Assembly: GCA_016193315.1 (NCBI GenBank)
Contig: JACPSJ010000001.1
Span: forward strand, 21,935-85,934
Length of the DNA: 64,000 bases
Direction: 5' to 3'
DNA from: Candidatus Kerfeldbacteria bacterium
Lineage (GTDB): Bacteria > Patescibacteriota > Patescibacteriia > SBBC01 > CAIJZX01
Shown here in pieces: positions 334-62,325 of this stretch. The position numbers were made by a program, and so were the translations under genes. Under the pieces are notes generated by a model. It saw nothing but the letters and a program-made list of their open reading frames with translations, was not told where the DNA came from and searched no databases. The first letter of the stretch is position 1. Every line of letters begins with the position of its first letter.

Positions 334-1275
334 TTATAGAGTTGTTATCGGCCGCGACTGCAGAATGTAGAAGTTCCCGCGCTGCCACGCCCATTCGATG
401 TCTTGCGGGCGGCGGTAGTGGTTCTCGATTTTGGCGCAGAGTTTGGATAGAGCCAGAATCTGGATTTTAGAAAGTTTCTGTTTCGTTTTTTTGGCCGGCG
501 GTACCGGCCGCTCGATCGTGCCATGCTGGCCACGGACGATGATTTTCTTTTGTTCACTGACATTAATATCAAGGATTTCCCACCCTTTCTTGTGGATGAC
601 GTACGTATCGGGCGTGATTTTCCCGCCGACGATCGCCTCGCCCAGACCCCACCCAGCTTCGATCACCATTTGATCGTAATCTTTGGTGACCGGATGAACG
701 GTGAAGCAAATGCCCGAGACGTCGGACTGGATCATGGCCTGTACCACCACGGCCACGGATACTTTCGTCCGGTGTAATTTATTTTCAAAGCGGTAGAAGA
801 TGGCGCGTGGTGTGAACAGCGATGCCCAGCATTTCTGAACGGCGGAGAGCAAGTCTTTTTTTGTGACGTTGAGATAGCTTTCCAATTCTCCGGCCCATGA
901 GGCGGCGGCGGCGTCTTCGGCCGTGGCCGAACTGCGGACGGCGACCGTTGGTGCTTGGAGCGCCACGAAAGCCAACCGCGTTTCTTTGGCAATGTCAGTC
1001 GGCATATCAACGCTCATGATCTGCCCACGAATGTCTTCAGAAACCCGCTCAATGGAGTTCACGTCGCGGACGTTGATTTTGTGGAGCTGCGCTTCTATTT
1101 CCACGTCGATGTCCGTCTCATCTAAAAAACTTTCAAAAGCCGTAGTCAGCACGACAAAGCCTGACGGCACCGGAATTCCCGCCCTGGCCATTTCACCGAG
1201 GCTCGCGCCCTTGCCGCCCGCGAGAGCAACGTCGGTCCGCGAGAGCAGCCTGAATGGCTTGGTAAACTTAGTCAT
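334..1275 (-). CDS. ATP-grasp nucleotide-binding protein resembling the N-terminal domain of PEP synthase or pyruvate phosphate dikinase (PPDK_N-like)
   Basis: Gly-rich N-terminus VALAGGKGASLGEMARAGIPVPSGFVV and C-terminal DIEWAWQRGNFYILQSRPIT, both typical of PPDK_N; 4-bp overlap with the upstream gene. Confidence 0.75.
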   Translation of the reverse strand: MTKFTKPFRLLSRTDVALAGGKGASLGEMARAGIPVPSGFVVLTTAFESFLDETDIDVEIEAQLHKINVRDVNSIERVSEDIRGQIMSVDMPTDIAKETRLAFVALQAPTVAVRSSATAEDAAAASWAGELESYLNVTKKDLLSAVQKCWASLFTPRAIFYRFENKLHRTKVSVAVVVQAMIQSDVSGICFTVHPVTKDYDQMVIEAGWGLGEAIVGGKITPDTYVIHKKGWEILDINVSEQKKIIVRGQHGTIERPVPPAKKTKQKLSKIQILALSKLCAKIENHYRRPQDIEWAWQRGNFYILQSRPITTL

Positions 1276-2288
1276 CGTCGCGTCAACAGCTTTACCATAC
1301 CTCGATTGCCGTCGACTTCGACTTGATCACCGTCTTGAAAAACCTGCGTGGCATACTTGGTGCCGACGATACAGACGATCCCAAATTCTCGGGCCACGAT
1401 CGCGGCATGGCACATTGCTCCACCCTCGTCGGTCACAATCGCCGCGGCCCGGCGAGCCGCGGTTACGAAATCCGGAGTCGTCATCGGCGCAACCAAGACA
1501 TCACCCGGCCGAACTTTCCGGAGCTGTGAGTGCTCGAACACGACTTTGACGCGGCCACTCGCTTTTTTCTGTATCACACTTGTCCCGCGGAGAGGGCCCG
1601 ACGAGCCAGCCGCGGCATCAAAGGTGATATTGCGGCGACGGGCAAACGTTTCCAGGCGGAGGTCAGCGAATAATTTCCCGCGATAAAAGATGAAGCCGCG
1701 TTTTCGGCGGTTAATGTCTGGCGGCAGGCGGACTGATTCAACTTCCTGTTTAGTCAGGAGCTGGACTATTGGGGAGAAGCTCGCCGGGAGCTTTTTCTTA
1801 GCCATAGATACGAACGTTTTTTCGCCGACACTCAGCAGCTGATCGTATTGGTGGCGCAATCGTTGTGCCTTTTTAGCCAATGGCGGCGAAATTTGATCAG
1901 GGATAAAGCTGCCGAAAATGTCGGCAAAATCTATCAGTGGCCAGATGCTTAGCAGCAAACTGTAGGCTTTCGAAAAATCTTTGGGATTTGCTCGTTCCGA
2001 TAACTCCAAAAATTGTTGCGCCCGCGTCTCGCATTTCACCAGCATTGAATCGACCGCGTGCCGATGTTTGGAATAGTGCTGCTCGAAATGATCGTAATCT
2101 TGCCGGCGATCGGAAAAGTCGAAGTAGAGTGCCGTCCCGCGGCCGGGCCGGTAGTGAAACAGGGGAGCGAAGAAAATACTGCCACCAAATGCTTTCGGTA
2201 AGATGACGCGTTCCCCGCGATCCCAATTTTGACAGAGCAGGAGGGAGATTGATCGATTTTCGACCTTTCGAAAGTGATGAGGCTTCAC
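1272..2288 (-). CDS. PEP-utilizing enzyme mobile (swivel phosphohistidine) domain protein with a ~240-aa N-terminal domain of unknown function
   Basis: C-terminal TTPDFVTAARRAAAIVTDEGGAMCHAAIVAREFGIVCIVG is the PEP-utilisers His motif; 4-bp overlaps at both ends suggest an operon. Confidence 0.7.
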   Translation of the reverse strand: MKPHHFRKVENRSISLLLCQNWDRGERVILPKAFGGSIFFAPLFHYRPGRGTALYFDFSDRRQDYDHFEQHYSKHRHAVDSMLVKCETRAQQFLELSERANPKDFSKAYSLLLSIWPLIDFADIFGSFIPDQISPPLAKKAQRLRHQYDQLLSVGEKTFVSMAKKKLPASFSPIVQLLTKQEVESVRLPPDINRRKRGFIFYRGKLFADLRLETFARRRNITFDAAAGSSGPLRGTSVIQKKASGRVKVVFEHSQLRKVRPGDVLVAPMTTPDFVTAARRAAAIVTDEGGAMCHAAIVAREFGIVCIVGTKYATQVFQDGDQVEVDGNRGMVKLLTRR

Positions 2289-3778
2289 AATATCTTGACT
2301 ACACCTTTCCCGGCATCAACTTCCACTAGATCTCCATCCTTGAGCACTTTTGTAGCCACTCGGGTGCCGATGACGCACGGCTTCTTCAACTCCCGGGCGA
2401 TGATTGCGGCGTGACAAAGCATACCGCCCTCATCAGTGATGATTGCCTTAGCCCGCTTCATCAGCGGCACGAACTCAGGTGAGGTCATCGAGGTGACGAG
2501 GATTTCACCATTTTGAAAGTACCGTCCTTCGTGAATCGGATTGGTGATCGAACGAACCCGGCCAGTAGCTTTTCCCGAAAAGGCGGTTGAGCCTTGGAGT
2601 AGTTTCGCTTGCGCGATTGCTTCCTCGTGCCAATCTTCTTTGCGCACGCCGCTCAAAACTTGAATTTGCTGGCCCACCTGTTTAATGGTAAAACCCTTCA
2701 CCTTGCGCCCGGCGACGATGCGGCGGATCGAATCGCCGCGAAGTCCAGCTATGATTTCCTCCCGCGACAGCCACCATAAATCATTGGGTTCGATACTGAG
2801 GCGTCGGCTGACCTCGTCGTACAGTGGGGCAGCGTGCTGCCAGTAATCGTGGATAAAGAGTGAATCGAGGTTGCGGTAACCCATCATAACCCGCAGCCAA
2901 TGGATGTGTTGACGGACTCGCGGATAGGTACGGAAGCGGGCGAGGATCTTTCGCACCGTCGTGGCTGCTTGCCGTTCTTGAGTTTGGAGAAGTCGTCGGG
3001 CTCGTGGCACCGATAATCCCCGCGACCGAAGAAATCGTTGTTCATAATCAGCCGGGGTAAACGGCCTATTCGTACGCTCGTTGAAAACGCTATGGCCGAA
3101 GTCGTACCATTGTTGGAAAACTACGTTCTGAATGGCCGCCAGGCGACGCTGGCGCTTGATTCGATGGAGACGATGGATCTGTTGCAGGCGGCGGAGGAAA
3201 GCCATGCGCTCGGCGATGAAAATGGAACGGATGCCGACTTGACATAACTGTCGGTAGACCCGCTCTTGTTCTTCGTCCGTGGCGTCAATCAGAACTTCGC
3301 CAATCTCCTGTCTGACAATCCGTGTCAGCAGGTTCACTAGGTCATAGACGATGTAGTATCCCGCTGAAGCAATCTTGCTAGCTAGATGCAGTACTTCGAA
3401 CTCGCGGCGGAGTTGGTTGGTGGACAACCCCAGGTAAAATTCAGGCCCCTTTCGGAAGATTGCATCGGTCATCCGCCTGAGTTGGCGGTACGAGTCGTGG
3501 AAATACCGATCGAGATATTGGAAATAGCGGTGCTCGCGCCGCAGGCGTTTCCAGATTTTTCCCAAAAAAGCATCTTCGACCTTCCGATCCCAATACAAAT
3601 AGACTTGCCGCTTGTTCGGCCCGTCCATCGATACGTACTTGACCCAATTAGGCAAGTTTCGGTACGGCGCGGCGCGCCAGTTGAGCAACGTCACCTGAAG
3701 CGTCTCCTGCTCATGGAGGACTTCAATGGTCCGAACCATTTTTTCGATGTAGCGCTGGTCGGAAAAGGGACGGTACAT
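2285..3778 (-). CDS. second PEP-utilizing mobile-domain protein with a ~390-aa N-terminal domain of unknown function
   Basis: C-terminal TSPEFVPLMKRAKAIITDEGGMLCHAAIIARELKKPCVIG; paralogous to the 1272..2288 gene. Confidence 0.7.
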   Translation of the reverse strand: MYRPFSDQRYIEKMVRTIEVLHEQETLQVTLLNWRAAPYRNLPNWVKYVSMDGPNKRQVYLYWDRKVEDAFLGKIWKRLRREHRYFQYLDRYFHDSYRQLRRMTDAIFRKGPEFYLGLSTNQLRREFEVLHLASKIASAGYYIVYDLVNLLTRIVRQEIGEVLIDATDEEQERVYRQLCQVGIRSIFIAERMAFLRRLQQIHRLHRIKRQRRLAAIQNVVFQQWYDFGHSVFNERTNRPFTPADYEQRFLRSRGLSVPRARRLLQTQERQAATTVRKILARFRTYPRVRQHIHWLRVMMGYRNLDSLFIHDYWQHAAPLYDEVSRRLSIEPNDLWWLSREEIIAGLRGDSIRRIVAGRKVKGFTIKQVGQQIQVLSGVRKEDWHEEAIAQAKLLQGSTAFSGKATGRVRSITNPIHEGRYFQNGEILVTSMTSPEFVPLMKRAKAIITDEGGMLCHAAIIARELKKPCVIGTRVATKVLKDGDLVEVDAGKGVVKIL

Positions 3779-7079: not shown

Positions 7080-7784
7080 TTATGAATTCCAACCTTTGGC
7101 CGCCAACCCGTTGAAGGCGGCCATCACCTGAGCTTCTTGTTTTGAGGCGCCCTCGCCCGCGGCGATTTGATCGTCATCAATGTACAGGCCGACCAAAAAA
7201 TGCTTGTCATGATCCGGCCCCCATTCTTTCAGCACTTTGTAGGACGGCGTGATGCCGAGAATAGCCTGGCTCATTTCCTGAAACTTGCTCTTGGGATCGA
7301 CGTAGAGCTGTTGTTGCAGGATATCCGGCAGCTTGCTTAAGATCCGGGCCATGATGAACGCCTCGGCCGGCGCCAAGCCGCCGTCGAGAAAGAGGGCACC
7401 AATAATGGCTTCGACCGCGTTGGCGTGAATGTTCTGACGGGCCTTGGAGTTTTTTTCTTTGGCTTCGCCGCGGCTCATCATCAGCCAGTGATCGAGATCG
7501 AGTTCGGCGGCCACCGTGGACAGCGACTTGGCGTTGACCAGACTGGCCCGCCAGTTTGTCAGATCGCCCTCCGGGTTGGGGTAGTGATGGAAGAGGTGCT
7601 GGCTGACGACCAGTTCCAAGACGGCGTCGCCGAGGAATTCCAGCCGCTCGTTGTGCCCGAGCGGAAAATCAGGGTGCTCGTTGAGGTAGGAGCGATGGAC
7701 CAGCGCTTGGCGTAGGAGATCGGGATGTAGAAATTGGTGCTTCAGGATAGTTTGGATTTCGTCGATGTCGGCCATAGCCGTCAT
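7080..7784 (-). CDS. rnc: ribonuclease III
   Basis: RNase III signature [15 protein letters not shown]; dsRBD at the C-terminus. Confidence 0.9.
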
Positions 7785-43025: not shown

Positions 43026-43277
43026 GGTCTTTCTACTACATACTGTAGTACCTTGGGCCGAGTGTCAACCCCGCACCACTTTTTGGTATTCTCACGGCCG
43101 CGGATGCCGCCGACGTCGAAGCCGCCTCTCATTGTATACCAAGAGGCGAATCTGATTGGCGGAAAAGTGGTGCGGGGTGCCCGGCCCCCGGGGCCAGCGC
43201 TATGGCCGGACCGAAAAGCGCTTGTCAAATGGGGTAACCTTGGCTATACTTCGCCTGCTTCGTTTGGTCGACCAGCT

Positions 43278-45189: not shown

Positions 45190-46152
45190 ATGCCGTACTT
45201 CTACCGTCGCGAGGTGTTCCAGCAAGCGCTGGATATCATCTGGCGAAAAAAATACCTCTGGTTTCTCGGTTTCTTTGCTGGCCTGGCCGCCCATGGCGGC
45301 GAACCGGATTTGTTGTTCCGCAACACGAATTCACTCCGCTGGCTTCAGGATAGCGTCGCTATTCTCCGCGATGTCGTCCGCGGCGGTCAAGCCGATCAAT
45401 TCCTGGCTAACCTCCGGCTCTTCTTCAACAACTACACGCTCAACGCGGTGGGATACCTGGCCGTTCTGATCCTGATCTTAGTCGTTATCTTGTGGCTGGT
45501 GATCGTTTCCCAATCAGCCATCGTCCGGGTGGTCGGTCGGGCCAGCCAAAAGAAGCAGACTAGTCTATTTGACGGGTTGGCTACGGGGACGGAAAAATTC
45601 TGGTCGCTACTGACCGTCAACGTGGTAACTAAACTGTTCACGTGGGCACTCTGGATCATTGTGGCCGGCATCCCAGCCATCGCTTTTTTTGTTACTGGCC
45701 AGGCCGCCTGGGCCATAACATTCAGTCTTGGCTCGCTCTTGGTCACCCTCCCGATCAGCATCGTCGTCTCCTTCCTGACCAAGTATGCCATCGCCGCCAT
45801 TACGCTTGGCGGAACGGACACCATTGGCGGCCTGCGGCAGGCCTGGAAGATATTCCGCGACAATTGGTTGGTCAGTATTGAGCTGGCCGTGCTCATCTAT
45901 CTGTTCAACTTGGCCGTCGTTTTGGTCGTGGCTGGGGTAACGCTGCTGGTAGTGCAAACAGTCACCTCATTCCGCGAGTTCTTCACGCTCTTAACGGTCC
46001 TCGCCATCGTTCACAGTTTTGTCAGCGCCTTCAGCTATGCGGCTTGGACTACGGTCTATCAAAAGTTACTGATTAGCAAAGGCGAAAGCCAGCTCGGCTA
46101 CTGGACCACGAAGCTGACCAATTTCATCCAACCGAAGCGATCACTAGGATAG
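45190..46152 (+). CDS. hypothetical polytopic membrane protein
   Basis: ~6 TM helices; AGGAGGG RBS. Confidence 0.5.
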   Translation: MPYFYRREVFQQALDIIWRKKYLWFLGFFAGLAAHGGEPDLLFRNTNSLRWLQDSVAILRDVVRGGQADQFLANLRLFFNNYTLNAVGYLAVLILILVVILWLVIVSQSAIVRVVGRASQKKQTSLFDGLATGTEKFWSLLTVNVVTKLFTWALWIIVAGIPAIAFFVTGQAAWAITFSLGSLLVTLPISIVVSFLTKYAIAAITLGGTDTIGGLRQAWKIFRDNWLVSIELAVLIYLFNLAVVLVVAGVTLLVVQTVTSFREFFTLLTVLAIVHSFVSAFSYAAWTTVYQKLLISKGESQLGYWTTKLTNFIQPKRSLG

Positions 46153-46198: not shown

Positions 46199-46315
46199 CC
46201 AATCCTGATGCCCGTGCCCACCGCGCGCCGCTTGCCTGGTCGGTCCTTAGCTCCTCGTAAAGACCGGCGAAGCCGGTCCACGGGGCAGGCAATGTACGTA
46301 CGGTCCCGCCCCGGT

Positions 46316-46387
46316 TCGGTCCCTAGCTCAATGGTAGAGCACTCGTCTTATACACGAGCGGTTGCAGGTTCGAGTCCTGCGGGACCG
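46316..46387 (+). tRNA. tRNA with anticodon TAT (would read AUA; Ile-like), no encoded CCA
   Basis: Cloverleaf: acceptor CGGTCCC/GGGACCG, D-arm GCTC..GAGC, anticodon stem CTCGT/ACGAG, loop CTTATAC, T-arm GCAGG TTCGAGT CCTGC. Confidence 0.6.
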
Positions 46388-46548
46388 AGTTTGGGCGGGA
46401 CAGGTACACGAGCGGTCGCGGGACTGCCCCGAAAACGAGGAACTACGTGACAAGTTGTACGGGACTCGAATCCTGGCGGGCCGACCATGGAAAGGGTGTA
46501 TCGCCTCAGCGCTTAAGGCACCCGGTGTGAAAGATTCAACCGAAAACT

Positions 46549-48290: not shown

Positions 48291-48504
48291 TCTTAGCCCG
48301 GTATTTCTTACTTGAACTATTGGGGTCGGCGTGCTACCCTCCATCGCGCGAGTTTCCTGTACTTTCTGGTTTACGAGTTCGTAGCTCTCGCCCGCTAGCG
48401 CCTTCGGCGCAAGCCGTGGCGAGCGGGCAGCCCGGTTAGACCCGCCCGCCGGCTTCGCCCGATTCTGTCAAATTATCGTCTTGGTTTAAAGAAAAGCTGC
48501 TGTT

Positions 48505-48581
48505 GGGTTCGTAGCTCAGTTGGTTAGAGCGCCACATTGACATTGTGGAGGTCAGAGGTTCAAATCCTCTCGGACCCACCA
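48505..48581 (+). tRNA. tRNA-Val (GAC), CCA encoded
   Basis: Cloverleaf GGGTTCG..anticodon loop TTGACAT..TTCAAAT..CGGACCCACCA. Confidence 0.85.
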
Positions 48582-48617
48582 AGAGCTTTTCTTACGCCGG
48601 CGAAGCGGGCCGGGGCG

Positions 48618-48665
48618 CTACGTTGACATCGTGAAGGCCAGAGGTTCAAATCCGGGCGTGGTACG
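48618..48665 (+). repeat. degenerate partial copy of the tRNA-Val anticodon/T-arm region
   Basis: cgttgacatcgtgaaggccagaggttcaaatcc versus tRNA cattgacattgtggaggtcagaggttcaaatcc; the T-stem is not complementary. Confidence 0.3.
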
Positions 48666-54744: not shown

Positions 54745-55677
54745 GGTTCACCTCTTTCAGTTCGCTTCACGCGAGTGAAGTCGTAGTGGAAAGTTGATTC
54801 GGCCAGGACATGGGCACCGCTCAAATAGCGACCGGCTCGACCATTTGCTGTGACCGGGCGGCAAGACATTATCGTGACACTGGTCCTGTCGCCAGGGTTT
54901 GAAGTCATCTGGTTAGTCAAGACGTGTCCGTTGACGAACAGTTCCGGGCCAGGTTCATGATCCGCCATCGGGCCTCCGGCAAAGATGGAAAGGGCGAAGA
55001 TAACGAAACAAGCTCCCGGTCGGGAGCTCATGTCTTGGCGTCGAGTAGTGGGTGGATTTATGGCGACAACACAGGAACTCCCGATCGGCTGGAGCCGGTC
55101 AGAATCAGACTAAGCGTGATGGTCAGAATCTGGGAGTAGACTGTGGTGTCCATACAAGAATAACCTAGCGCAAAACCGCCAAGGTGTCAATACCCCCCCT
55201 GGAACATTAGTCGTTCCCCCGCCTGCGCGTCTACCCAATTAGGCGCCCAGGTGGGGGAGCGGCCGCGTAGATGGCTTGCACCTTACGCGGCCGCCTCGTC
55301 TTGACCGCCATTCCGGTTTTCCGGAACGGCTTCCAAGGGTTTGGACTTGGCTGGCTCGCCGCGGTGGTTTTGGCGCCGGCCGGAATAGACCATCCCAGCC
55401 GCCAAAAGAATCGGGGTCGCGACCACCAGCGCGATCATCCACACCCAGGCAGGTACTGGCACTAGATTCACCTCCTTTGGTTTAGGTGCGGCTTTCCACG
55501 TGATCCGGACTGGCACGTATTACGTGGTGCTGCGGCCGGACTTACGTGGTCCCGGTCAGCTGCGGCGCAAAATGAGCGTTGGCCTAGGCATAGCACAAAG
55601 GCCTTCCGTTGTAAAGAGTGTGCTTGTCCGGACAATAGTTATGGCTAACGAGTGTGACAGTCAAGCTTGTAAGCAGC

Positions 55678-55765
55678 TGGTGCGGCCGAGAGGACTCGAA
55701 CCTCCAATCCCTTGCGGGAACTAGCACCTCAAGCTAGCGCGTATACCAAATTCCGCCACGGCCGC
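55678..55765 (-). tRNA. tRNA-Leu (GAG), class II, CCA encoded
   Basis: Reverse complement GCGGCCG...CTAGC TTGAGGT GCTAG, long variable arm, GGAGG TTCGAGT CCTCT CGGCCGCACCA. Confidence 0.8.
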
Positions 55766-55965
55766 ACCAGCTGCTGACAAAGTTTCAAGGTGCTGCGTCC
55801 CTCTTGGTAGGTTGAGATTGTGCCATAAAAATTTGTCCTCGGCAAGCGATCATTCCAACTTGCCCTTCCTTGCTTTTTCCGCTAGGGTAGTCGCGGCCGG
55901 TCGAGGAATCGGTTATATGAGAAGCTCTTTGACACATCGGCCAACAACCGAAAGGAGGTTTCGGC

Positions 55966-57797: not shown

Positions 57798-58116
57798 CGT
57801 TCAGCCGCAGGCCCGCGGCACCACGTTAGCCTCGATTATGTCGGGGCTTTTTTCAAAGTCTTGGACGAAGAGTGGGCTGACCGGCCGGGCCCAAGTGCCT
57901 TGAAATGGACGGCCGATTCTGGTAAAGTAGCGCTGCTCCTGAAGCGCACGGCGGTCACTTGTCCGAGATGCACTGCGTCCCCGCCGTGGCCGATGACGAT
58001 TAGCTCCGCGTAAAGCCCGAAACAAATTCGGGCCACGCGCCGCCGCAGCTAGTCAGAGCGCTCCGCTTATCCCGTACCACTTGTCGCTGCGTTCCTTGGA
58101 TGCGGGGCAGGCATCG

Positions 58117-58191
58117 AGGACGGTTAGCTCAGCGGGAGAGCACTCGGCTTACATCCGAGGGGTCGCAGGTTCGATCCCTGCACCGTCCACC
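58117..58191 (+). tRNA. tRNA-Val (TAC), CCA encoded
   Basis: GGACGGT..anticodon loop CTTACAT..TTCGATC..ACCGTCCACCA. Confidence 0.85.
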
Positions 58192-58306
58192 AAGAAGTCT
58201 GACGGGGTACGCCGAGGAAGTCGCCCCGCCAAAAGGCGGGGCATCGTCCACGGCTTCGGCCGGCGGGTCCGAAAGGCCGTCCCGCCGAATGGCGGGACAC
58301 CGTCCA
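58180..58306 (+). repeat. 10-nt direct repeat (caccgtccac) of the tRNA-Val 3' end, flanking a 107-nt segment made of two GC hairpins
   Basis: caccgtccac at 58180..58189 and 58297..58306; between them cgccccgccaaaaggcggggc and gtcccgccgaatggcgggac. Confidence 0.45.
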
Positions 58307-58318
58307 CTAAAGCAAACC

Positions 58319-58598: not shown

Positions 58599-58635
58599 GG
58601 GGTGTAGCTCAGCGGCAGAGTCCCGCTCCATATAT
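58599..58635 (+). repeat. tRNA 5'-half-like fragment (acceptor plus D-arm) followed by the palindrome ccatatatgg
   Basis: ggggtgtagctcagcggcagag resembles a tRNA acceptor and D-arm, abutting tRNA-Ala. Confidence 0.3.
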
Positions 58636-58708
58636 GGGCTGTTAGCTCAATTGGTAGAGCACCTCATTTGCAATGAGGAGGTCACCGGTTCGAGTCCGGT
58701 ACAGTCCA
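58636..58708 (+). tRNA. tRNA-Ala (TGC), no encoded CCA
   Basis: GGGCTGT (G3:U70)...anticodon loop TTTGCAA...TTCGAGT...ACAGTCCA. Confidence 0.8.
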
Positions 58709-58847
58709 TATCTAGTGCGGGACGAGGGTCAAGGGGCGAGCGAGGCGAGCGGGCAGCCGGTGGCTGCCCCGGGCGCGAAGCGTGACTCCCTTCATCTCCA
58801 TTTTGGTGCGGGACGACCCTCCTCAGGTCTAGAGTCCTCGAAAATGC

Positions 58848-60462: not shown

Positions 60463-60548
60463 GATCGCACAGTGCCGCGGTAGCTCAGTGGTAGAGCGCA
60501 GGCCTGCCCGGCGGAGCCGGGTCCGGCTCTGCCGGAAAGAACCTGGCC
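60463..60548 (+). other. tRNA-Phe-like 5' half (acceptor, D-arm, 5' anticodon stem) followed by a ~42-nt GC-rich insert. Its first 18 nt form the outer inverted repeat
   Basis: GCCGCGGTAGCTCAGTGGTAGAGCGCAGGCCTG then cccggcggagccgggtccggctctgccggaaagaacctggcc; compare intact tRNA-Phe GCCTGGGTAGCTCAGTGGTAGAGCGCAGCCCTG. Confidence 0.45.
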
Positions 60549-60631
60549 CTTCGCTGCGGCTCAGGGTAAACTCTATCAGTTCGACTTGCCCCGCACCTCA
60601 CAAACAGTAGTTTTTTTCTCGCCTGGTGCCT

Positions 60632-60706
60632 GCCTGGGTAGCTCAGTGGTAGAGCGCAGCCCTGAAGAGGTTGGCGTCATCAGTTCGATTCTGATCCCAG
60701 GCACCA
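60632..60706 (+). tRNA. tRNA-Phe (GAA), CCA encoded
   Basis: GCCTGGG..anticodon stem CAGCC/GGTTG loop CTGAAGA..ATCAG TTCGATT CTGAT CCCAGGCACCA. Confidence 0.85.
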
Positions 60707-60916
60707 GGCGAGAACGGAATGAATGAGGTGCGGGGTTCTGACCCGCGGCACTGTGCGATCTTGGTAGCGAAGTGGGTCGAGCCGGTCTCGCGAAGCGAGA
60801 GCGACAGAACTGCTTCTGTCGCGGCCGGCGAGACGGGCAATCCCATGTTCCGAAGGAACGGGATTGCCCCGGAAGAGCGCCGGGCACGTAAAGGCACGCT
60901 TCGCGTCTCCACGTGC

Positions 60917-61027
60917 CAGGCCTGCCCGGCGAAGCCGGGTCCGGCTCCGGAACGTATAACGTTCCTCCGCCGGAAAGAGCCTGGCGTCGTCAGTTCTGCC
61001 GGACTCCGATCGGGGCTGATCCCAGAT
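60917..61027 (+). other. tRNA-Phe-like 3' half (anticodon arm onward) carrying two inserts
   Basis: CAGGC CTG [49-nt insert homologous to 60507..60548] AAAGA GCCTG GCGTC GTCAG TTC [20-nt insert] TGAT CCCAG; compare tRNA-Phe ...CTGAAGAGGTTGGCGTCATCAGTTCGATTCTGATCCCAGGCACCA. Confidence 0.45.
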
Positions 61028-61485: not shown

Positions 61486-61653
61486 GGTGATTCCCTAATT
61501 CCTCCCAAGCGATGGAACCTAGAGAGGCTCTTGCTTTTTATTACGTTTTACGATAATTTATTGATCTGTTACGGCCCGCTCCCCCGCACCGCTTTCTTCT
61601 CGCTCGTTCGGGTGCCGGGCGAGACTCAATACACATACATCCGCGGCCCACGT

Positions 61654-61729
61654 GGGCCGTTAGCTCAGCTGGTAGAGCAGCTGCCTCTTAAGCAGCGGGT
61701 CGCAGGTTCGAATCCTGCACGGCTCACCA
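61654..61729 (+). tRNA. tRNA-Lys (CTT), CCA encoded
   Basis: GGGCCGT..anticodon loop CTCTTAA..TTCGAAT..ACGGCTCACCA. Confidence 0.85.
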
Positions 61730-61861
61730 CGCGAGCCGCGGAATGGTAATCGCTAGCTCAATTGGGTCCGGCGAAGGGACGTATTACGTCCCGAAGCCGG
61801 ACGGGCAGAAGCGATCCCGCCGTACGGCGGGAGAGCGATCGGCGAGTTGCCAGTGGCAAGT

Positions 61862-61932
61862 CGCCGCTGCCCAGGAAGAGCAATTGCCTCTTAAGCAATG
61901 GGTTGGAGGTTCGAATCCTAGGCTGGTCACCA
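61862..61932 (+). repeat. degenerate tRNA-Lys(CTT)-like sequence (pseudo-tRNA)
   Basis: ...GCAATTGCCTCTTAAGCAATGGGTTGGAGGTTCGAATCCTAGGCTGGTCACCA has the anticodon and T-loop, but the D-arm/acceptor and T-stem are disrupted. Confidence 0.3.
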
Positions 61933-62325
61933 GCATTTTCACACGCAAGAAGCGCTCGTAGAAAAACTCATCATGGCAGAGCCAGATCCGGCGCCGCCGG
62001 AAAATTGACAACGATCGCGGCGGAACCGCCGGCGGATTTCTAAGGAGCGGCCTGCCCTGAGCCTGCCGAATGGGTCGAACCCTTTTCAAAATAGTTCACC
62101 AGCGGTGGCGCTTGAGGTTAACTCAATCGGGCCCGCGCCCGGCGGATCCGTATGTAACGCGGGGGCATTCTGCCAGACTTGACGTTTTTCCGGGATGATG
62201 TAGTATTGGGCGCGGGTATTCGTTTATTAGACAGATGAACAAGCTGGAGGGAGCTGCCACCAGGGTTGTTGATGTTAGGTTCCACGCCCGGTCAGGCGGT
62301 GTTGTTCTCGTGAACCGGACGTTCT

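What the first reader, a model, noticed from the sequence alone, without database searches (positions are those of the whole stretch)
48490..48600. Pre-tRNA leader-trailer complementarity spanning the encoded CCA is a general feature of tRNA genes in this window
For tRNA-Val(GAC), the leader gaaaagct pairs with the trailer agcttttc. For tRNA-Leu(GAG) at 55674..55773, it is cagctggtgc/gcaccagctg. For tRNA-Phe at 60617..60720, it is tctcgcctggtgcc/ggcaccaggcgaga. For tRNA-Lys at 61641..61745, it is ccgcggcccacgtgg/ccacgcgagccgcgg. For the TAT tRNA see above. In each case the 5' leader is complementary to the 3' CCA plus trailer and extends the acceptor stem by 8..14 bp. This is a systematic leader/trailer (anti-CCA) processing stem. 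It resembles the extended processing stems of rRNA precursors and the circumstances under which split or permuted tRNAs are matured.
Basis: seen in the sequence. Interest (0 to 1): 0.55.

Follow-up and report, generated by a model that had tools for sequence, protein, structure and literature searches.

The report
Replacement tRNA genes on hairpin cassettes
The matching sequences on either side of these tRNA genes are the two arms of small DNA hairpin cassettes that each carry a complete tRNA gene and sit inside a broken older copy of the same gene, an arrangement found across several ultra-small (CPR) bacteria and not described in any paper I could find.

Summary
The leader/trailer complementarity is real. 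It beats shuffled controls (p<=0.008) for 5 of the 7 tRNA genes, is marginal for Ala, and is only distal for Val-TAC. It does not depend on CCA, because two of the genes encode no CCA.

The window comes from a Candidatus Kerfeldbacteria (CPR) genome. Seven related genomes carry the same tRNA set in the same order. Genes without the stem are ordinary intact genes. Genes with the stem usually sit inside the loops of a disrupted older copy with the same anticodon, up to three deep.

The stem belongs to a palindromic cassette. Many copies share a 9-bp terminal inverted repeat, TCCCGCACC...GGTGCGGGA. A private, covarying stem then runs into the acceptor stem. A metagenome scan found about 23 such cassettes carrying at least 12 tRNA identities. 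Small empty hairpin relatives occur only at tRNA loci.

My best reading (0.55) is a protein-less insertion cassette that overwrites the resident tRNA gene and supplies the replacement. An RNA-level role for the stem as a folding clamp or RNase III site is possible but unproven. Orthologues manage without the stem, and leader-CCA pairing is known to inhibit RNase P. No transposase or integrase was found, so mobility and mechanism are inferred.

The parts
46304..46404 (+). Ile cassette: TCCCGCCCCGGT, then the inner tRNA-Ile(TAT) at 46316-46389 (no CCA, C1-G72), then ..GGGCGGGACAGG.
   Evidence: A homologous cassette sits at 35|36 of an intact outer tRNA-Ile in L091.
46241..46487 (+). Broken outer tRNA-Ile(TAT). 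Exon pieces are 46241-46253, 46405-46415 and 46466-46487 (the last ends ...GGGCCGACCA).
   Evidence: Alignment to the intact tRNA-Ile of L092, L094 and L096 gives 11-12/13, 10/11 and 21/22 identities. The whole 46225-46500 stretch folds as one nested stem, -137.8 kcal/mol.
46254..46291 (+). Empty hairpin element E, inserted after TAGCTC (D-arm) of the outer tRNA-Ile.
   Evidence: Covariance model R1, 40.6 bits, E=1.4e-6. Context.
46421..46463 (-). Inverted copy of element E in the T-loop region of the outer tRNA-Ile.
   Evidence: R1, 24.4 bits, E=0.005.
48491..48591 (+). tRNA-Val(GAC) at 48505-48581, with leader arm 48491-48498 and trailer arm 48584-48591. These are the finding's coordinates.
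   Evidence: (p=0.008).
48615..48653 (+). 3' fragment of an older tRNA-Val(GAC), covering the anticodon arm to the T-arm, 87% identical to the live gene.
   Evidence: (family D2).
55668..55780 (-). tRNA-Leu(GAG) at 55678-55765 with a roughly 15-bp leader/trailer helix, TTGTCAGCAGCTGGT / ACCAGCTGCTTACAA. No outer remnant was detected.
   Evidence: (p=0.001). The L088 homologue is nested in an old-type Leu.
57994..58309 (+). Val-TAC nest. The inner tRNA is at 58118-58192. Outer remnants are 57995-58006 (GACGATTAGCTC), 58054-58069 (CAGAGCGCTCCGCTTA) and the 3' acceptor relics 58243-58251 and 58299-58309. Element E lies at 58071-58113, in the outer anticodon loop. The distal arms are 58071-58075 and 58203-58207.
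58599..58800 (+). Ala nest. Outer pieces are 58599-58620, 58723-58736 and 58784-58800. The cassette is 58621-58722: TCCCGCTCC, then tRNA-Ala(TGC) at 58635-58709 (G3:U70, no CCA), then AGTGCGGGA.
   Evidence: Right half confirmed by independent contig L221.
60463..60760 (+). Broken outer tRNA-Phe. Exons are 60474-60506, 60537-60546, 60576-60584 and 60736-60751. It has its own 11-bp leader/trailer pair, 60463-60473 with 60750-60760. It carries a 30-nt insert inside the anticodon (60507-60536) and an insert in the variable region.
   Evidence: Alignment to the intact L086 tRNA-Phe gives 31/33, 8/10, 9/9 and 16/16. Rfam gives a weak tRNA hit, 24.2 bits. See also (D11).
60585..60735 (+). Phe cassette in the T-loop (A58|U59) of the outer Phe. 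The outer arms are CCCCGCACCTCA at 60589-60600 and TGAGGTGCGGGG at 60724-60735. The inner arms are 60617-60630 and 60700-60713. The live tRNA-Phe(GAA) is at 60632-60706.
   Evidence: Left half confirmed by L221.
60917..60996 (+). Second tRNA-Phe relic. Its anticodon arm is split at the same 34|35 site by an enlarged copy of the same insert.
   Evidence: (D13).
61640..61742 (+). tRNA-Lys(CTT) at 61654-61729, with arms TCCGCGGC at 61640-61647 and GCCGCGGA at 61735-61742.
   Evidence: (p=0.000). The L088 homologue has arms tccgtcgctcgct / agcgagcgacgga.
61751..61932 (+). Decayed old-type tRNA-Lys(CTT), pieces 61751-61765 and 61873-61932, with a 107-nt D-loop insert at 61766-61872.
   Evidence: (D1, 80%). 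A homologous insert occurs in L086 Lys copies 2 and 3.
43069..43177 (+). Cassette-type palindrome, CCCCGCACCACTTTT ... AAAAGTGGTGCGGGG, with no recognisable tRNA inside. It lies upstream of ftsH.
   Evidence: MFE -56.2 kcal/mol, z=-3.6.
7080..7784 (-). RNase III gene, a candidate enzyme for cutting long leader/trailer helices. This role is inferred only.
   Evidence: Pfam Ribonucleas_3_3 at 1.6e-38 plus dsrm.

Best explanation
Each live tRNA gene sits at the tip of a small palindromic insertion cassette. The leader and trailer are the two arms of that cassette.

In its clearest form the cassette starts and ends with a conserved 9-bp inverted repeat, TCCCGCACC ... GGTGCGGGA. A private stem follows, whose sequence differs from copy to copy but stays paired. 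That stem stacks directly on the acceptor stem and covers N73 and CCA only when CCA happens to be encoded.

The cassettes lie in the D, anticodon, variable or T loop of an older copy of the same tRNA gene. That older copy is interrupted. It then decays and collects further small hairpin insertions, the roughly 43-nt E elements.

Resident tRNA genes in these small genomes are therefore being overwritten by hairpin-borne replacements, sometimes three layers deep.

Shown directly:
- the cassette architecture;
- the nesting inside a copy with the same anticodon;
- filled and empty orthologous sites;
- conservation of the terminal repeat and covariation of the private stem;
- restriction of these elements to tRNA loci.

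Inferred:
- The cassettes are non-autonomous mobile DNA that targets the loops of tRNA genes, probably as a folded single strand.
- An insertion into an essential single-copy tRNA gene survives only if its cargo replaces the gene it destroys. That filter would explain the same-anticodon rule.
- The new gene is transcribed from the old gene's promoter.
- In the transcript, the stem clamps the new tRNA as a separate folding unit, away from the near-identical outer halves. It must then be cut or unwound, for example by RNase III, before RNase P can act.
For: Pairing is non-random.

The same tRNA set and order occur in 7 related genomes that are only about 70-75% identical in the ftsH region. The pairing is frequent here, 16 of 33, against 6 of 80 in other CPR and Chloroflexi loci.

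Pairing goes with nesting. Among tRNAs with significant pairing, 23 of 61 have outer fragments of themselves in the flanks, against 14 of 360 without pairing (Fisher p=1e-12).

Filled versus empty sites:
- The intact L083 tRNA-Ile aligns to the L091 outer copy as 1-36 plus 37-77, with a 103-nt insert exactly at 35|36.
- The intact L092 tRNA-Val(GAC) equals the L091 outer copy at 77 of 77 positions across 3 precise inserts.
- The intact L086 tRNA-Phe matches the window's outer Phe exons.
- L094 holds a triple Val-GAC nest in which both inner layers are flanked by TCCCGCACC...GGTGCGG(G)A. L015 holds another triple nest.

The metagenome scan gave about 23 cassettes with the conserved repeat. They carry Thr, Ala, Lys, Asn, Gly, Cys, Pro, Arg, Ser, Val, Ile and Phe. 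Positions 1-9 are near-invariant, position 7 covaries between A-T and C-G, and positions 10-14 are 88% paired against 47% in the partner-shuffle control.

In every case where the outer anticodon is readable (about 25, counted by eye) it equals the inner one.

Outer copies range from intact (L091, L086) to heavily degraded. Eight of 11 cannot form a tRNA after the inserts are removed, though the L091 Ile entry was truncated in that test.

Element E matches only at tRNA loci: 12 hits in 182 kb, none in window 1-44 kb, and none at E<=0.1 in 1.3 Mb of other loci.

Independent assemblies reproduce the sequence.
Against: No transposase, integrase or reverse transcriptase was found in the window or next to the cassettes.

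There is no consistent target-site duplication.

Several stems in the window (Leu, Val-GAC, Lys) lack the conserved terminal repeat.

The L091 outer Val-GAC has three inserts, yet its exons are 77/77 identical to a functional gene in a genome only about 71% identical. That needs either very recent insertions or continued selection on the outer copy.

Homologous window and L088 stems differ by compensatory changes. That fits selection on the stem in place, at the RNA level, as well as or better than selection for mobility.

Stems show no sense/antisense asymmetry, so the DNA and RNA levels cannot be told apart.

Only 7 tRNA genes of this genome could be examined. The roughly 5 kb of extra sequence recovered on each side holds none.
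Confidence: 0.55

Rival explanations
1. The stems are pure RNA processing stems. The leader and trailer evolved in place to form an rRNA-like helix, cut by RNase III or a similar enzyme, that releases the pre-tRNA. The nesting is incidental.
For: Pairing is kept by compensatory changes between homologous window and L088 stems whose flanks are conserved. An RNase III gene is present. The helix of 13-17 bp stacks on the acceptor stem. Stems persist where no terminal repeat is left, as in the window's Leu and Val-GAC.
Against: Orthologous tRNAs in L086, L092 and L083 have no stem and are intact. A 9-bp terminal sequence conserved across at least 12 tRNA identities and genomes of 35-58% G+C points to common descent of an element. 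Pairing is strongly associated with nesting. Leader-RCCA pairing slows bacterial RNase P (PMC9433436).
Confidence: 0.17
2. The outer tRNAs are still functional. The cassettes and E hairpins are intervening sequences removed from the RNA, giving a tRNA-in-tRNA precursor. After the inner tRNA is excised, the leader/trailer duplex holds the outer halves together, much as in archaeal split tRNAs.
For: Inserts are precise and sit in loops. The L091 outer Ile is a complete cloverleaf with CCA, interrupted only at 35|36. The L091 outer Val-GAC exons are 77/77 identical to a functional orthologue despite 3 inserts. The L086 outer Val-TAC exons are identical to the inner gene. Position 35/36 is also the favoured site of group I introns in Patescibacteria tRNAs (PMC13011429).
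Against: Most outer copies have deletions or stem mismatches and cannot form a tRNA once the inserts are removed (8 of 11). E elements occur in both orientations. No ribozyme or group I core is found. No bulge-helix-bulge geometry is seen by inspection. No splicing endonuclease is known in bacteria, which rests on my own knowledge.
Confidence: 0.1
3. The fragments are scars of integrase-mediated integration and excision at tRNA genes. They would be old att sites left by decayed islands or prophages.
For: tRNA genes are classic integration targets. Val-GAC and Lys in the window are followed by a 3' partial copy, as at attR sites.
Against: The layout is nested, with the 5' piece upstream and the 3' piece downstream of a complete inner gene, rather than direct 3' repeats. 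Inserts are only 40-150 nt and have inverted, not direct, terminal repeats. No integrase is present.
Confidence: 0.05
4. The complementarity is chance, or reflects generic G+C-rich terminator hairpins, in a 58% G+C genome.
For: Intergenic regions are rich in hairpins.
Against: Shuffle tests, the background rate of 7.5% against 48%, and conserved termini with covariation.
Confidence: 0.02

Closest known systems
Miniature inverted-repeat transposable elements (MITEs) and other small palindromic repeats such as REP/REPIN and Rickettsia palindromic elements
   Same: They are short and protein-less, have conserved terminal inverted repeats, fold into a hairpin, occur in many copies, and show filled versus empty orthologous sites.
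   Different: Here the cargo is a complete functional tRNA gene. The targets are the loops of tRNA genes with the same anticodon. There is no consistent target-site duplication, and no partner transposase or RAYT was found. The copies are essential to the host.
Integrative elements (islands, prophages) that insert into tRNA genes and restore the gene with their own copy of its 3' part
   Same: They target tRNA genes, often at the anticodon or T loop, and keep a working tRNA after insertion. They also leave tRNA fragments behind.
   Different: Those elements are kilobases long, encode an integrase, and duplicate only the 3' segment as a direct repeat. Here a whole tRNA on a 100-150 nt palindrome sits nested inside the old gene.
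Mobile tRNA introns, split tRNAs and permuted tRNAs of archaea (Thermoproteales intron transposition, Nanoarchaeum split tRNAs); cited from my own knowledge
   Same: Related short sequences are inserted at many loop positions of different tRNA genes. Complementary leader and trailer segments bring tRNA pieces together.
   Different: The archaeal elements depend on a bulge-helix-bulge motif, a splicing endonuclease and functional exons. Here there is no such motif, the host is a bacterium, most outer exons are decayed, and the insert itself carries the working tRNA.
rRNA operon processing stems (leader/trailer helices cut by RNase III)
   Same: A long helix forms between sequences flanking a structured RNA. 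RNase III is encoded in the window.
   Different: rRNA stems are conserved at orthologous loci. These stems are absent from orthologous tRNA genes in sister genomes and come with conserved terminal repeats and nesting.
Short 5' leader to 3' RCCA pairing in E. coli pre-tRNAs (PMC9433436)
   Same: The leader pairs with RCCA and so extends the acceptor stem.
   Different: In E. coli this is 2-3 bp, and it acts as an anti-determinant that RNase P must unwind. Here the helix is 8-17 bp and continues well beyond CCA.
Group I introns at 35/36 in Patescibacteria tRNA genes (PMC13011429)
   Same: The same phylum is involved, and several cassettes use the same favoured insertion site, 35|36.
   Different: There is no catalytic core, since the inserts are 40-150 nt and Rfam gives no intron match. 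The outer exons decay.

Membership tests
MITE / TIR-type non-autonomous transposon | Terminal inverted repeats conserved among copies | tested here: met
   TCCCGC(A)CC...GG(T)GCGGGA in 23 cassettes. Positions 1-9 are 21-23 of 23 paired and nearly invariant. Not met for the window's Leu, Val-GAC and Lys.
MITE / TIR-type non-autonomous transposon | Target-site duplication of fixed length | tested here: not met
   Junctions were inspected. Inserts are precise with no duplication (L091 Ile, L091 Val-GAC). Only the Ser-CGA cassettes show a possible CGAA repeat.
MITE / TIR-type non-autonomous transposon | Filled and empty orthologous sites | tested here: met
   L083 versus L091 (Ile), L092 versus L091 (Val-GAC), L086 versus window (Phe) and L086 versus L088 (Leu).
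MITE / TIR-type non-autonomous transposon | A related autonomous element or transposase in the genome | tested here: inconclusive
   None in the 64-kb window or in the flanks of cassette loci. The whole genomes were not available.
Integrase-type integrative element at a tRNA gene | Direct repeat of the tRNA 3' segment bounding an element that encodes an integrase | tested here: not met
   The layout is nested, with inverted termini, inserts of 40-150 nt and no integrase.
RNase III processing stem of the rRNA type | Leader/trailer helix conserved at orthologous genes | tested here: not met
   Absent from the orthologous Ile, Val-GAC, Leu and Phe genes of L086 and from L092 and L083.
RNase III processing stem of the rRNA type | RNase III present and cutting the helix | not testable with these tools
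   The gene is present at 7080-7784. Cleavage needs RNA-end mapping.
Archaeal-type intron / split or permuted tRNA (bulge-helix-bulge) | Two 3-nt bulges separated by a 4-bp helix at the junctions | tested here: not met
   By inspection only. Cassette ends pair from the first to the last nucleotide and stack on the host stem, so no symmetric bulges are seen.
Archaeal-type intron / split or permuted tRNA (bulge-helix-bulge) | Exons give a functional tRNA after removal of the insert | tested here: not met
   Eight of 11 reconstructed outer genes are not recognised as tRNA. The L091 Ile entry was truncated in that test and is in fact intact. L086 Val-TAC and L091 Val-GAC are also intact.
Group I intron in tRNA | Catalytic core detectable by covariance model | tested here: not met
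   No Intron_gpI match at the gathering threshold or at E<=10 in 44-64 kb. The inserts are too short.
Bacterial Y RNA (YrlA-like tRNA mimic on a long stem) | Match to the family model, with a tRNA-like domain that is not a decoding tRNA | tested here: not met
   Deinococcus_Y_RNA scores 22.3 bits against a gathering score of 80. The inner genes are canonical tRNAs (53-74 bits) with orthologues.

The most novel reading that the evidence does not exclude
This would be a previously undescribed class of selfish overwrite elements in CPR bacteria. They are protein-less palindromic cassettes that carry a complete tRNA gene and insert into the loops of the resident single-copy tRNA gene. They become indispensable by destroying the copy they replace. 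Successive waves leave Russian-doll tRNA loci, and empty relatives colonise the dead copies.
Probability: 0.4. Interest if true: 0.9.

Novelty: categorically new. Interest (0 to 1): 0.8.

Why it matters
If this is right, essential tRNA genes in some of the smallest bacterial genomes turn over by a gene-overwriting mechanism nobody has described. A hairpin element would kill the resident gene and supply the antidote in the same stroke.

It would also show a mobile element that recognises tRNA-gene loops in bacteria. That bears on the old proposal that introns and split tRNA genes arose from conflict between tRNA genes and mobile DNA.

There are practical consequences too:
- These loci break short-read assemblies inside the tRNAs.
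- They leave fragments that tRNA finders can miscall. ARAGORN calls an insert-bearing Lys relic in L086 a gene.
- They give pre-tRNAs whose 8-17 bp leader/trailer helices should block RNase P, which implies an extra maturation step that can be tested.

Tried and rejected
Rfam over the window and at relaxed thresholds. It found only tRNAs, with no intron, ribozyme, CRISPR-repeat or Y RNA match at the cassettes.

Pfam over 58 ORFs of the window. No transposase, integrase, reverse transcriptase, HUH or GIY-YIG protein was found.

Small GIY-YIG genes of 82-91 aa lie in or near tRNA nests in L086, L088/L089, L130 and L173. They are absent from the window and from L091, L092, L094 and L096, so they remain an unproven candidate nuclease.

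I reused those loci as a background set.

About half of the metagenome pattern hits were artefacts. They were tRNA-Gly (3' end TCCCGCTCCA), tRNA-Cys, tRNA-Gly (5' GCGGGA) arrays, and I filtered them out.

A sense-versus-antisense energy test, meant to separate RNA-level from DNA-level selection, gave no signal (p=0.19).

The promoter scan was uninformative: 8 sites against 6.1 expected. One site at 57900-57928 lies upstream of the Val-TAC nest.

The extra sequence recovered beyond each end of the window (about 5 kb per side) holds no more tRNAs, so genome-wide generality remains untested.

Literature searches found no description of nested tRNA cassettes.

Two resemblances come from memory only and were not tested. 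The cassette 3' end GGTGCGGGATAAAC looks like the 3' half of type I-E CRISPR repeats and like the XerC arm of E. coli dif.
Full report
**Checking the observation**

ARAGORN and Rfam agree on seven tRNA genes, all between 46 and 62 kb: Ile-TAT, Val-GAC, Leu-GAG, Val-TAC, Ala-TGC, Phe-GAA and Lys-CTT, scoring 53.6-73.9 bits.

I compared the duplex energy of the 25-nt leader against N73(CCA) plus 25 nt of trailer with 1000 leader shuffles.
- Significant: Ile 0.007, Val-GAC 0.008, Leu 0.001, Phe 0.001, Lys 0.000.
- Not significant: Ala 0.067, Val-TAC 0.133.

- Ile-TAT and Ala-TGC encode no CCA.
- The Val-GAC stem is separated from the acceptor stem by an internal loop.
- The Phe leader (CTGGTGCC) pairs with positions 69-76 plus the trailer, in a register that competes with positions 1-4 of the tRNA.
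- Val-TAC has only a distal pairing.

So the complementarity is real and far from chance, but "anti-CCA" is incidental to it.

**Whose genome this is, and its relatives**

The proteins are bacterial housekeeping proteins such as FtsH, RluD-like, L19 and TonB. The DUF7847 protein at 45190-46152 is 100% identical to a protein of a Candidatus Kerfeldbacteria MAG (CPR/Patescibacteria) on an 857-kb contig.

Using its homologues I fetched seven related loci. They are only about 70-75% identical to one another in the ftsH region. Even so, the longer contigs carry the same tRNA genes in the same order, and the shorter contigs carry the first members of the set.

**Stems go with nesting**

Within this lineage 16 of 33 tRNAs have significant leader/trailer pairing. 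In 1.3 Mb of other CPR and Chloroflexi loci the figure is 6 of 80.

Orthologues differ. L086 has ordinary Ile, Val-GAC, Leu and Phe genes with no stem. The window and L088 have versions with stems and different acceptor stems.

Reading the flanks shows why. The genes with stems lie inside pieces of an older copy of the same tRNA.

In the window, the outer tRNA-Phe has these exons: 60474-60506, 60537-60546, 60576-60584 and 60736-60751. They match the intact L086 tRNA-Phe at 31/33, 8/10, 9/9 and 16/16 positions. This outer gene is interrupted three times:
- inside the anticodon, by a 30-nt hairpin insert;
- in the variable region;
- in the T-loop, by a 151-nt insert that carries the live tRNA-Phe.

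The outer tRNA-Ile (46241-46487) carries an E hairpin after TAGCTC, the Ile cassette in its anticodon region, and an inverted E hairpin in its T-loop. Ala and Val-TAC are nested in the same way. Val-GAC and Lys are each followed by a decayed older copy.

Across all loci, tRNAs with significant pairing have outer fragments of themselves in the flanks in 23 of 61 cases. Those without pairing do so in 14 of 360 cases (Fisher p=1e-12).

**Filled versus empty sites**

- The intact L083 tRNA-Ile aligns to L091 as two blocks, 1-36 and 37-77. A 103-nt insert sits exactly between anticodon positions 35 and 36, and the L091 outer gene is otherwise a complete cloverleaf with CCA.
- The intact L092 tRNA-Val(GAC) equals the L091 outer copy at 77 of 77 positions across three precise inserts of 23, 130 and 50 nt.
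- L094 has a triple nest of three different tRNA-Val(GAC) genes. Both inner layers are bounded by TCCCGCACC...GGTGCGG(G)A.
- L015, another Patescibacteria MAG, has a further triple nest. L019 (candidate division Kazan, Met) and L070 (Nomurabacteria, Ile) have single nests.

**The cassette family**

A pattern search of metagenome contigs for TCCCGCNCC, a T-loop and GCGGGA returned many hits. About half were artefacts from Gly-Cys-Gly tRNA arrays. About 23 were true cassettes. Together with the Kerfeldbacteria cases they carry Thr (three anticodons), Ala (three), Lys, Asn, Gly, Cys, Pro (two), Arg, Ser, Val, Ile and Phe.

The outermost nine positions are nearly invariant: T-A, C-G, C-G, C-G, G-C, C-G, then A-T or C-G, then C-G, C-G. 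Position 7 covaries between A-T and C-G. The next five positions vary freely in sequence but are 88% paired. When partners are shuffled the mean is 47% and the maximum over 1000 trials is 69%.

Only about 9 of the 23 encode CCA.

In every case where the outer anticodon can still be read, about 25 by eye, it equals the inner one.

The neighbours of these cassettes are housekeeping genes such as RF, FtsEX, S2 and EF-Ts, so these are chromosomal loci.

A cassette-type palindrome without a tRNA lies at window 43069-43177.

**Empty relatives**

A roughly 43-nt hairpin, which I call E, shares its arms with the cargo cassettes. Its layout is CCCG(C/T)A, a covarying stem, the loop TCGCnnnnCTCG, the return stem, then TACGGGGCAGGC(A/G).

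E is inserted precisely, leaving the exons contiguous, as in TAGCTC|E|A(N)TTGG. It occurs in either orientation.

A covariance model built from six copies finds 12 matches in 182 kb of Kerfeldbacteria loci. All lie at tRNA nests, and none lies in window 1-44 kb. It finds none at E<=0.1 in 1.3 Mb of other loci, and weaker variants beside cassettes elsewhere.

**How it most likely works**

These points are shown directly:
- the palindromic cassette, with conserved termini and a private stem that runs into the acceptor stem;
- insertion in loops of an older gene with the same anticodon;
- filled and empty orthologous sites;
- a continuum of outer copies from intact to badly decayed. Eight of 11 cannot form a tRNA even with the inserts removed, although the L091 Ile entry in that test was truncated and is actually intact.

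These points are inferred:
- The cassettes are non-autonomous mobile DNA that recognises tRNA-gene loops.
- The same-anticodon rule is a survival filter. Hitting an essential single-copy tRNA gene is tolerated only if the cargo replaces it.
- Empty E elements persist only in copies that are already dead.
- Short cassettes have no room for a promoter, so they probably use the old gene's promoter.
- In the transcript the stem may clamp the new tRNA away from the near-identical outer halves.

Even 2-3 bp of leader-RCCA pairing slows bacterial RNase P (PMC9433436). An 8-17 bp helix therefore implies a prior cut or unwinding step. An RNase III gene lies at 7080-7784.

**What argues against this, and the rivals**

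- No recombinase was found.
- There is no regular target-site duplication.
- The window's Leu, Val-GAC and Lys stems lack the conserved termini.
- Homologous window and L088 stems differ by compensatory changes within conserved flanks. That favours ongoing selection on pairing, possibly at the RNA level.
- The L091 outer Val-GAC is 77/77 identical to a functional orthologue in a genome about 71% identical. That keeps alive the rival that some outer genes are still used and the inserts behave like introns.
- Stem energies show no strand asymmetry, so RNA-level and DNA-level selection cannot be separated.
- Integrase scars and chance are poorly supported.

**Comparison with known systems, and novelty**

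The cassettes work like MITEs in having terminal inverted repeats, no coding capacity and filled versus empty sites. They work like tRNA-targeting integrative elements in that the gene is restored after insertion.

They fail defining tests for both families:
- no target-site duplication and no transposase found;
- no integrase and no direct repeats.

They also fail the tests for group I introns, bulge-helix-bulge introns, rRNA-type processing stems and Y RNAs (see the membership table).

Full-text searches found no description of tRNA genes nested in copies of themselves on palindromic cassettes. The closest paper reports group I introns at 35/36 in Patescibacteria tRNAs (PMC13011429).

I therefore rate the architecture as new. 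The mechanism and the mobility remain unproven.

**Reliability**

Independent Logan contigs from other sequencing runs are 100% identical to the window over the Ile nest, the left half of the Phe nest, the right half of the Ala nest and the Lys relic. They end inside tRNAs, as expected for repeat-induced breaks.

Only seven tRNA genes of this genome could be examined.

Noticed in passing
window 43069-43177: A 109-nt palindrome with cassette-type termini (CCCCGCACCACTTTT ... AAAAGTGGTGCGGGG, 16 bp) lies upstream of ftsH. It has no recognisable tRNA inside. It may be a cassette whose cargo has decayed.
   Followed up: partly
window 46316-46389, and all relatives (L083, L086, L088, L091, L092, L094, L096): A tRNA-Ile with anticodon TAT (UAU) is conserved next to DUF7847 throughout this lineage. 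From my own knowledge this anticodon is uncommon in bacteria. The window's live copy starts with C1-G72 and lacks CCA.
   Followed up: partly
L086 16939-17208; L088 14611-14883 (L089 13375-13650); L130 8655-8903; L173 29-349: Small stand-alone GIY-YIG nuclease-domain genes (82-91 aa) lie inside or near tRNA nests in several genomes. None is present in the window. They are a possible trans-acting nuclease, or the association may be coincidence.
   Followed up: partly
window 61766-61872 and L086 18337-18424: The decayed tRNA-Lys carries a roughly 100-nt D-loop insert. It consists of a GTC..GAC hairpin followed by a GGGCAG ... gccagtggca ... CTGCCC stem. The insert is homologous between two genomes only about 69% identical, and in L086 it is tandemly repeated three times.
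   Followed up: partly
window 62050-62070 (- strand) and L091 near 13167 (- strand): The 21-mer TTCGGCAGGCTCAGGGCAGGC is identical in both genomes. In the window it sits next to a T-arm-like remnant (GGGTTCGACCC). In L091 it is the insert after the anticodon of the outer Val-GAC.
   Followed up: no
window 334-3778 (- strand): A pyruvate phosphate dikinase / PEP-utilising enzyme appears split into three consecutive ORFs: PPDK_N, PEP-utilizers and PEP-utilizers.
   Followed up: no
window 48536/48550, 58671, 60660 and 61694: Short-read (Logan) contigs of the same organism all end inside tRNA genes. The nested repeats break assemblies. ARAGORN also calls an insert-bearing Lys relic in L086 (18422-18495) a tRNA gene.
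   Followed up: yes
L088 11006-11316 compared with window, L086 and L092: Ile-TAT and Val-GAC are on the opposite strand in L088/L089, while the flanking protein genes keep their order and orientation.
   Followed up: no
window 46266-46274, 48451-48459, 60928-60936 and others: GCGAAGC-type mini-hairpins such as CCGGCGAAGCCGG recur in the hairpin inserts around the tRNAs. There are 12 GCGAAGC sites in the window, 8 of them between 46 and 61 kb.
   Followed up: no
cassette 3' ends, e.g. L112, L130, L133, L138; window 60564-60571: GCGGGA is often followed by TAAAC, even where that is not exon sequence. From memory only, GGTGCGGGATAAAC resembles the 3' half of type I-E CRISPR repeats and the XerC arm of E. 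coli dif. This was not tested.
   Followed up: no
window 46303-46404: There is a weak Rfam match to Deinococcus Y RNA, 22.3 bits against a gathering score of 80. It probably reflects the tRNA-on-a-long-stem shape.
   Followed up: yes
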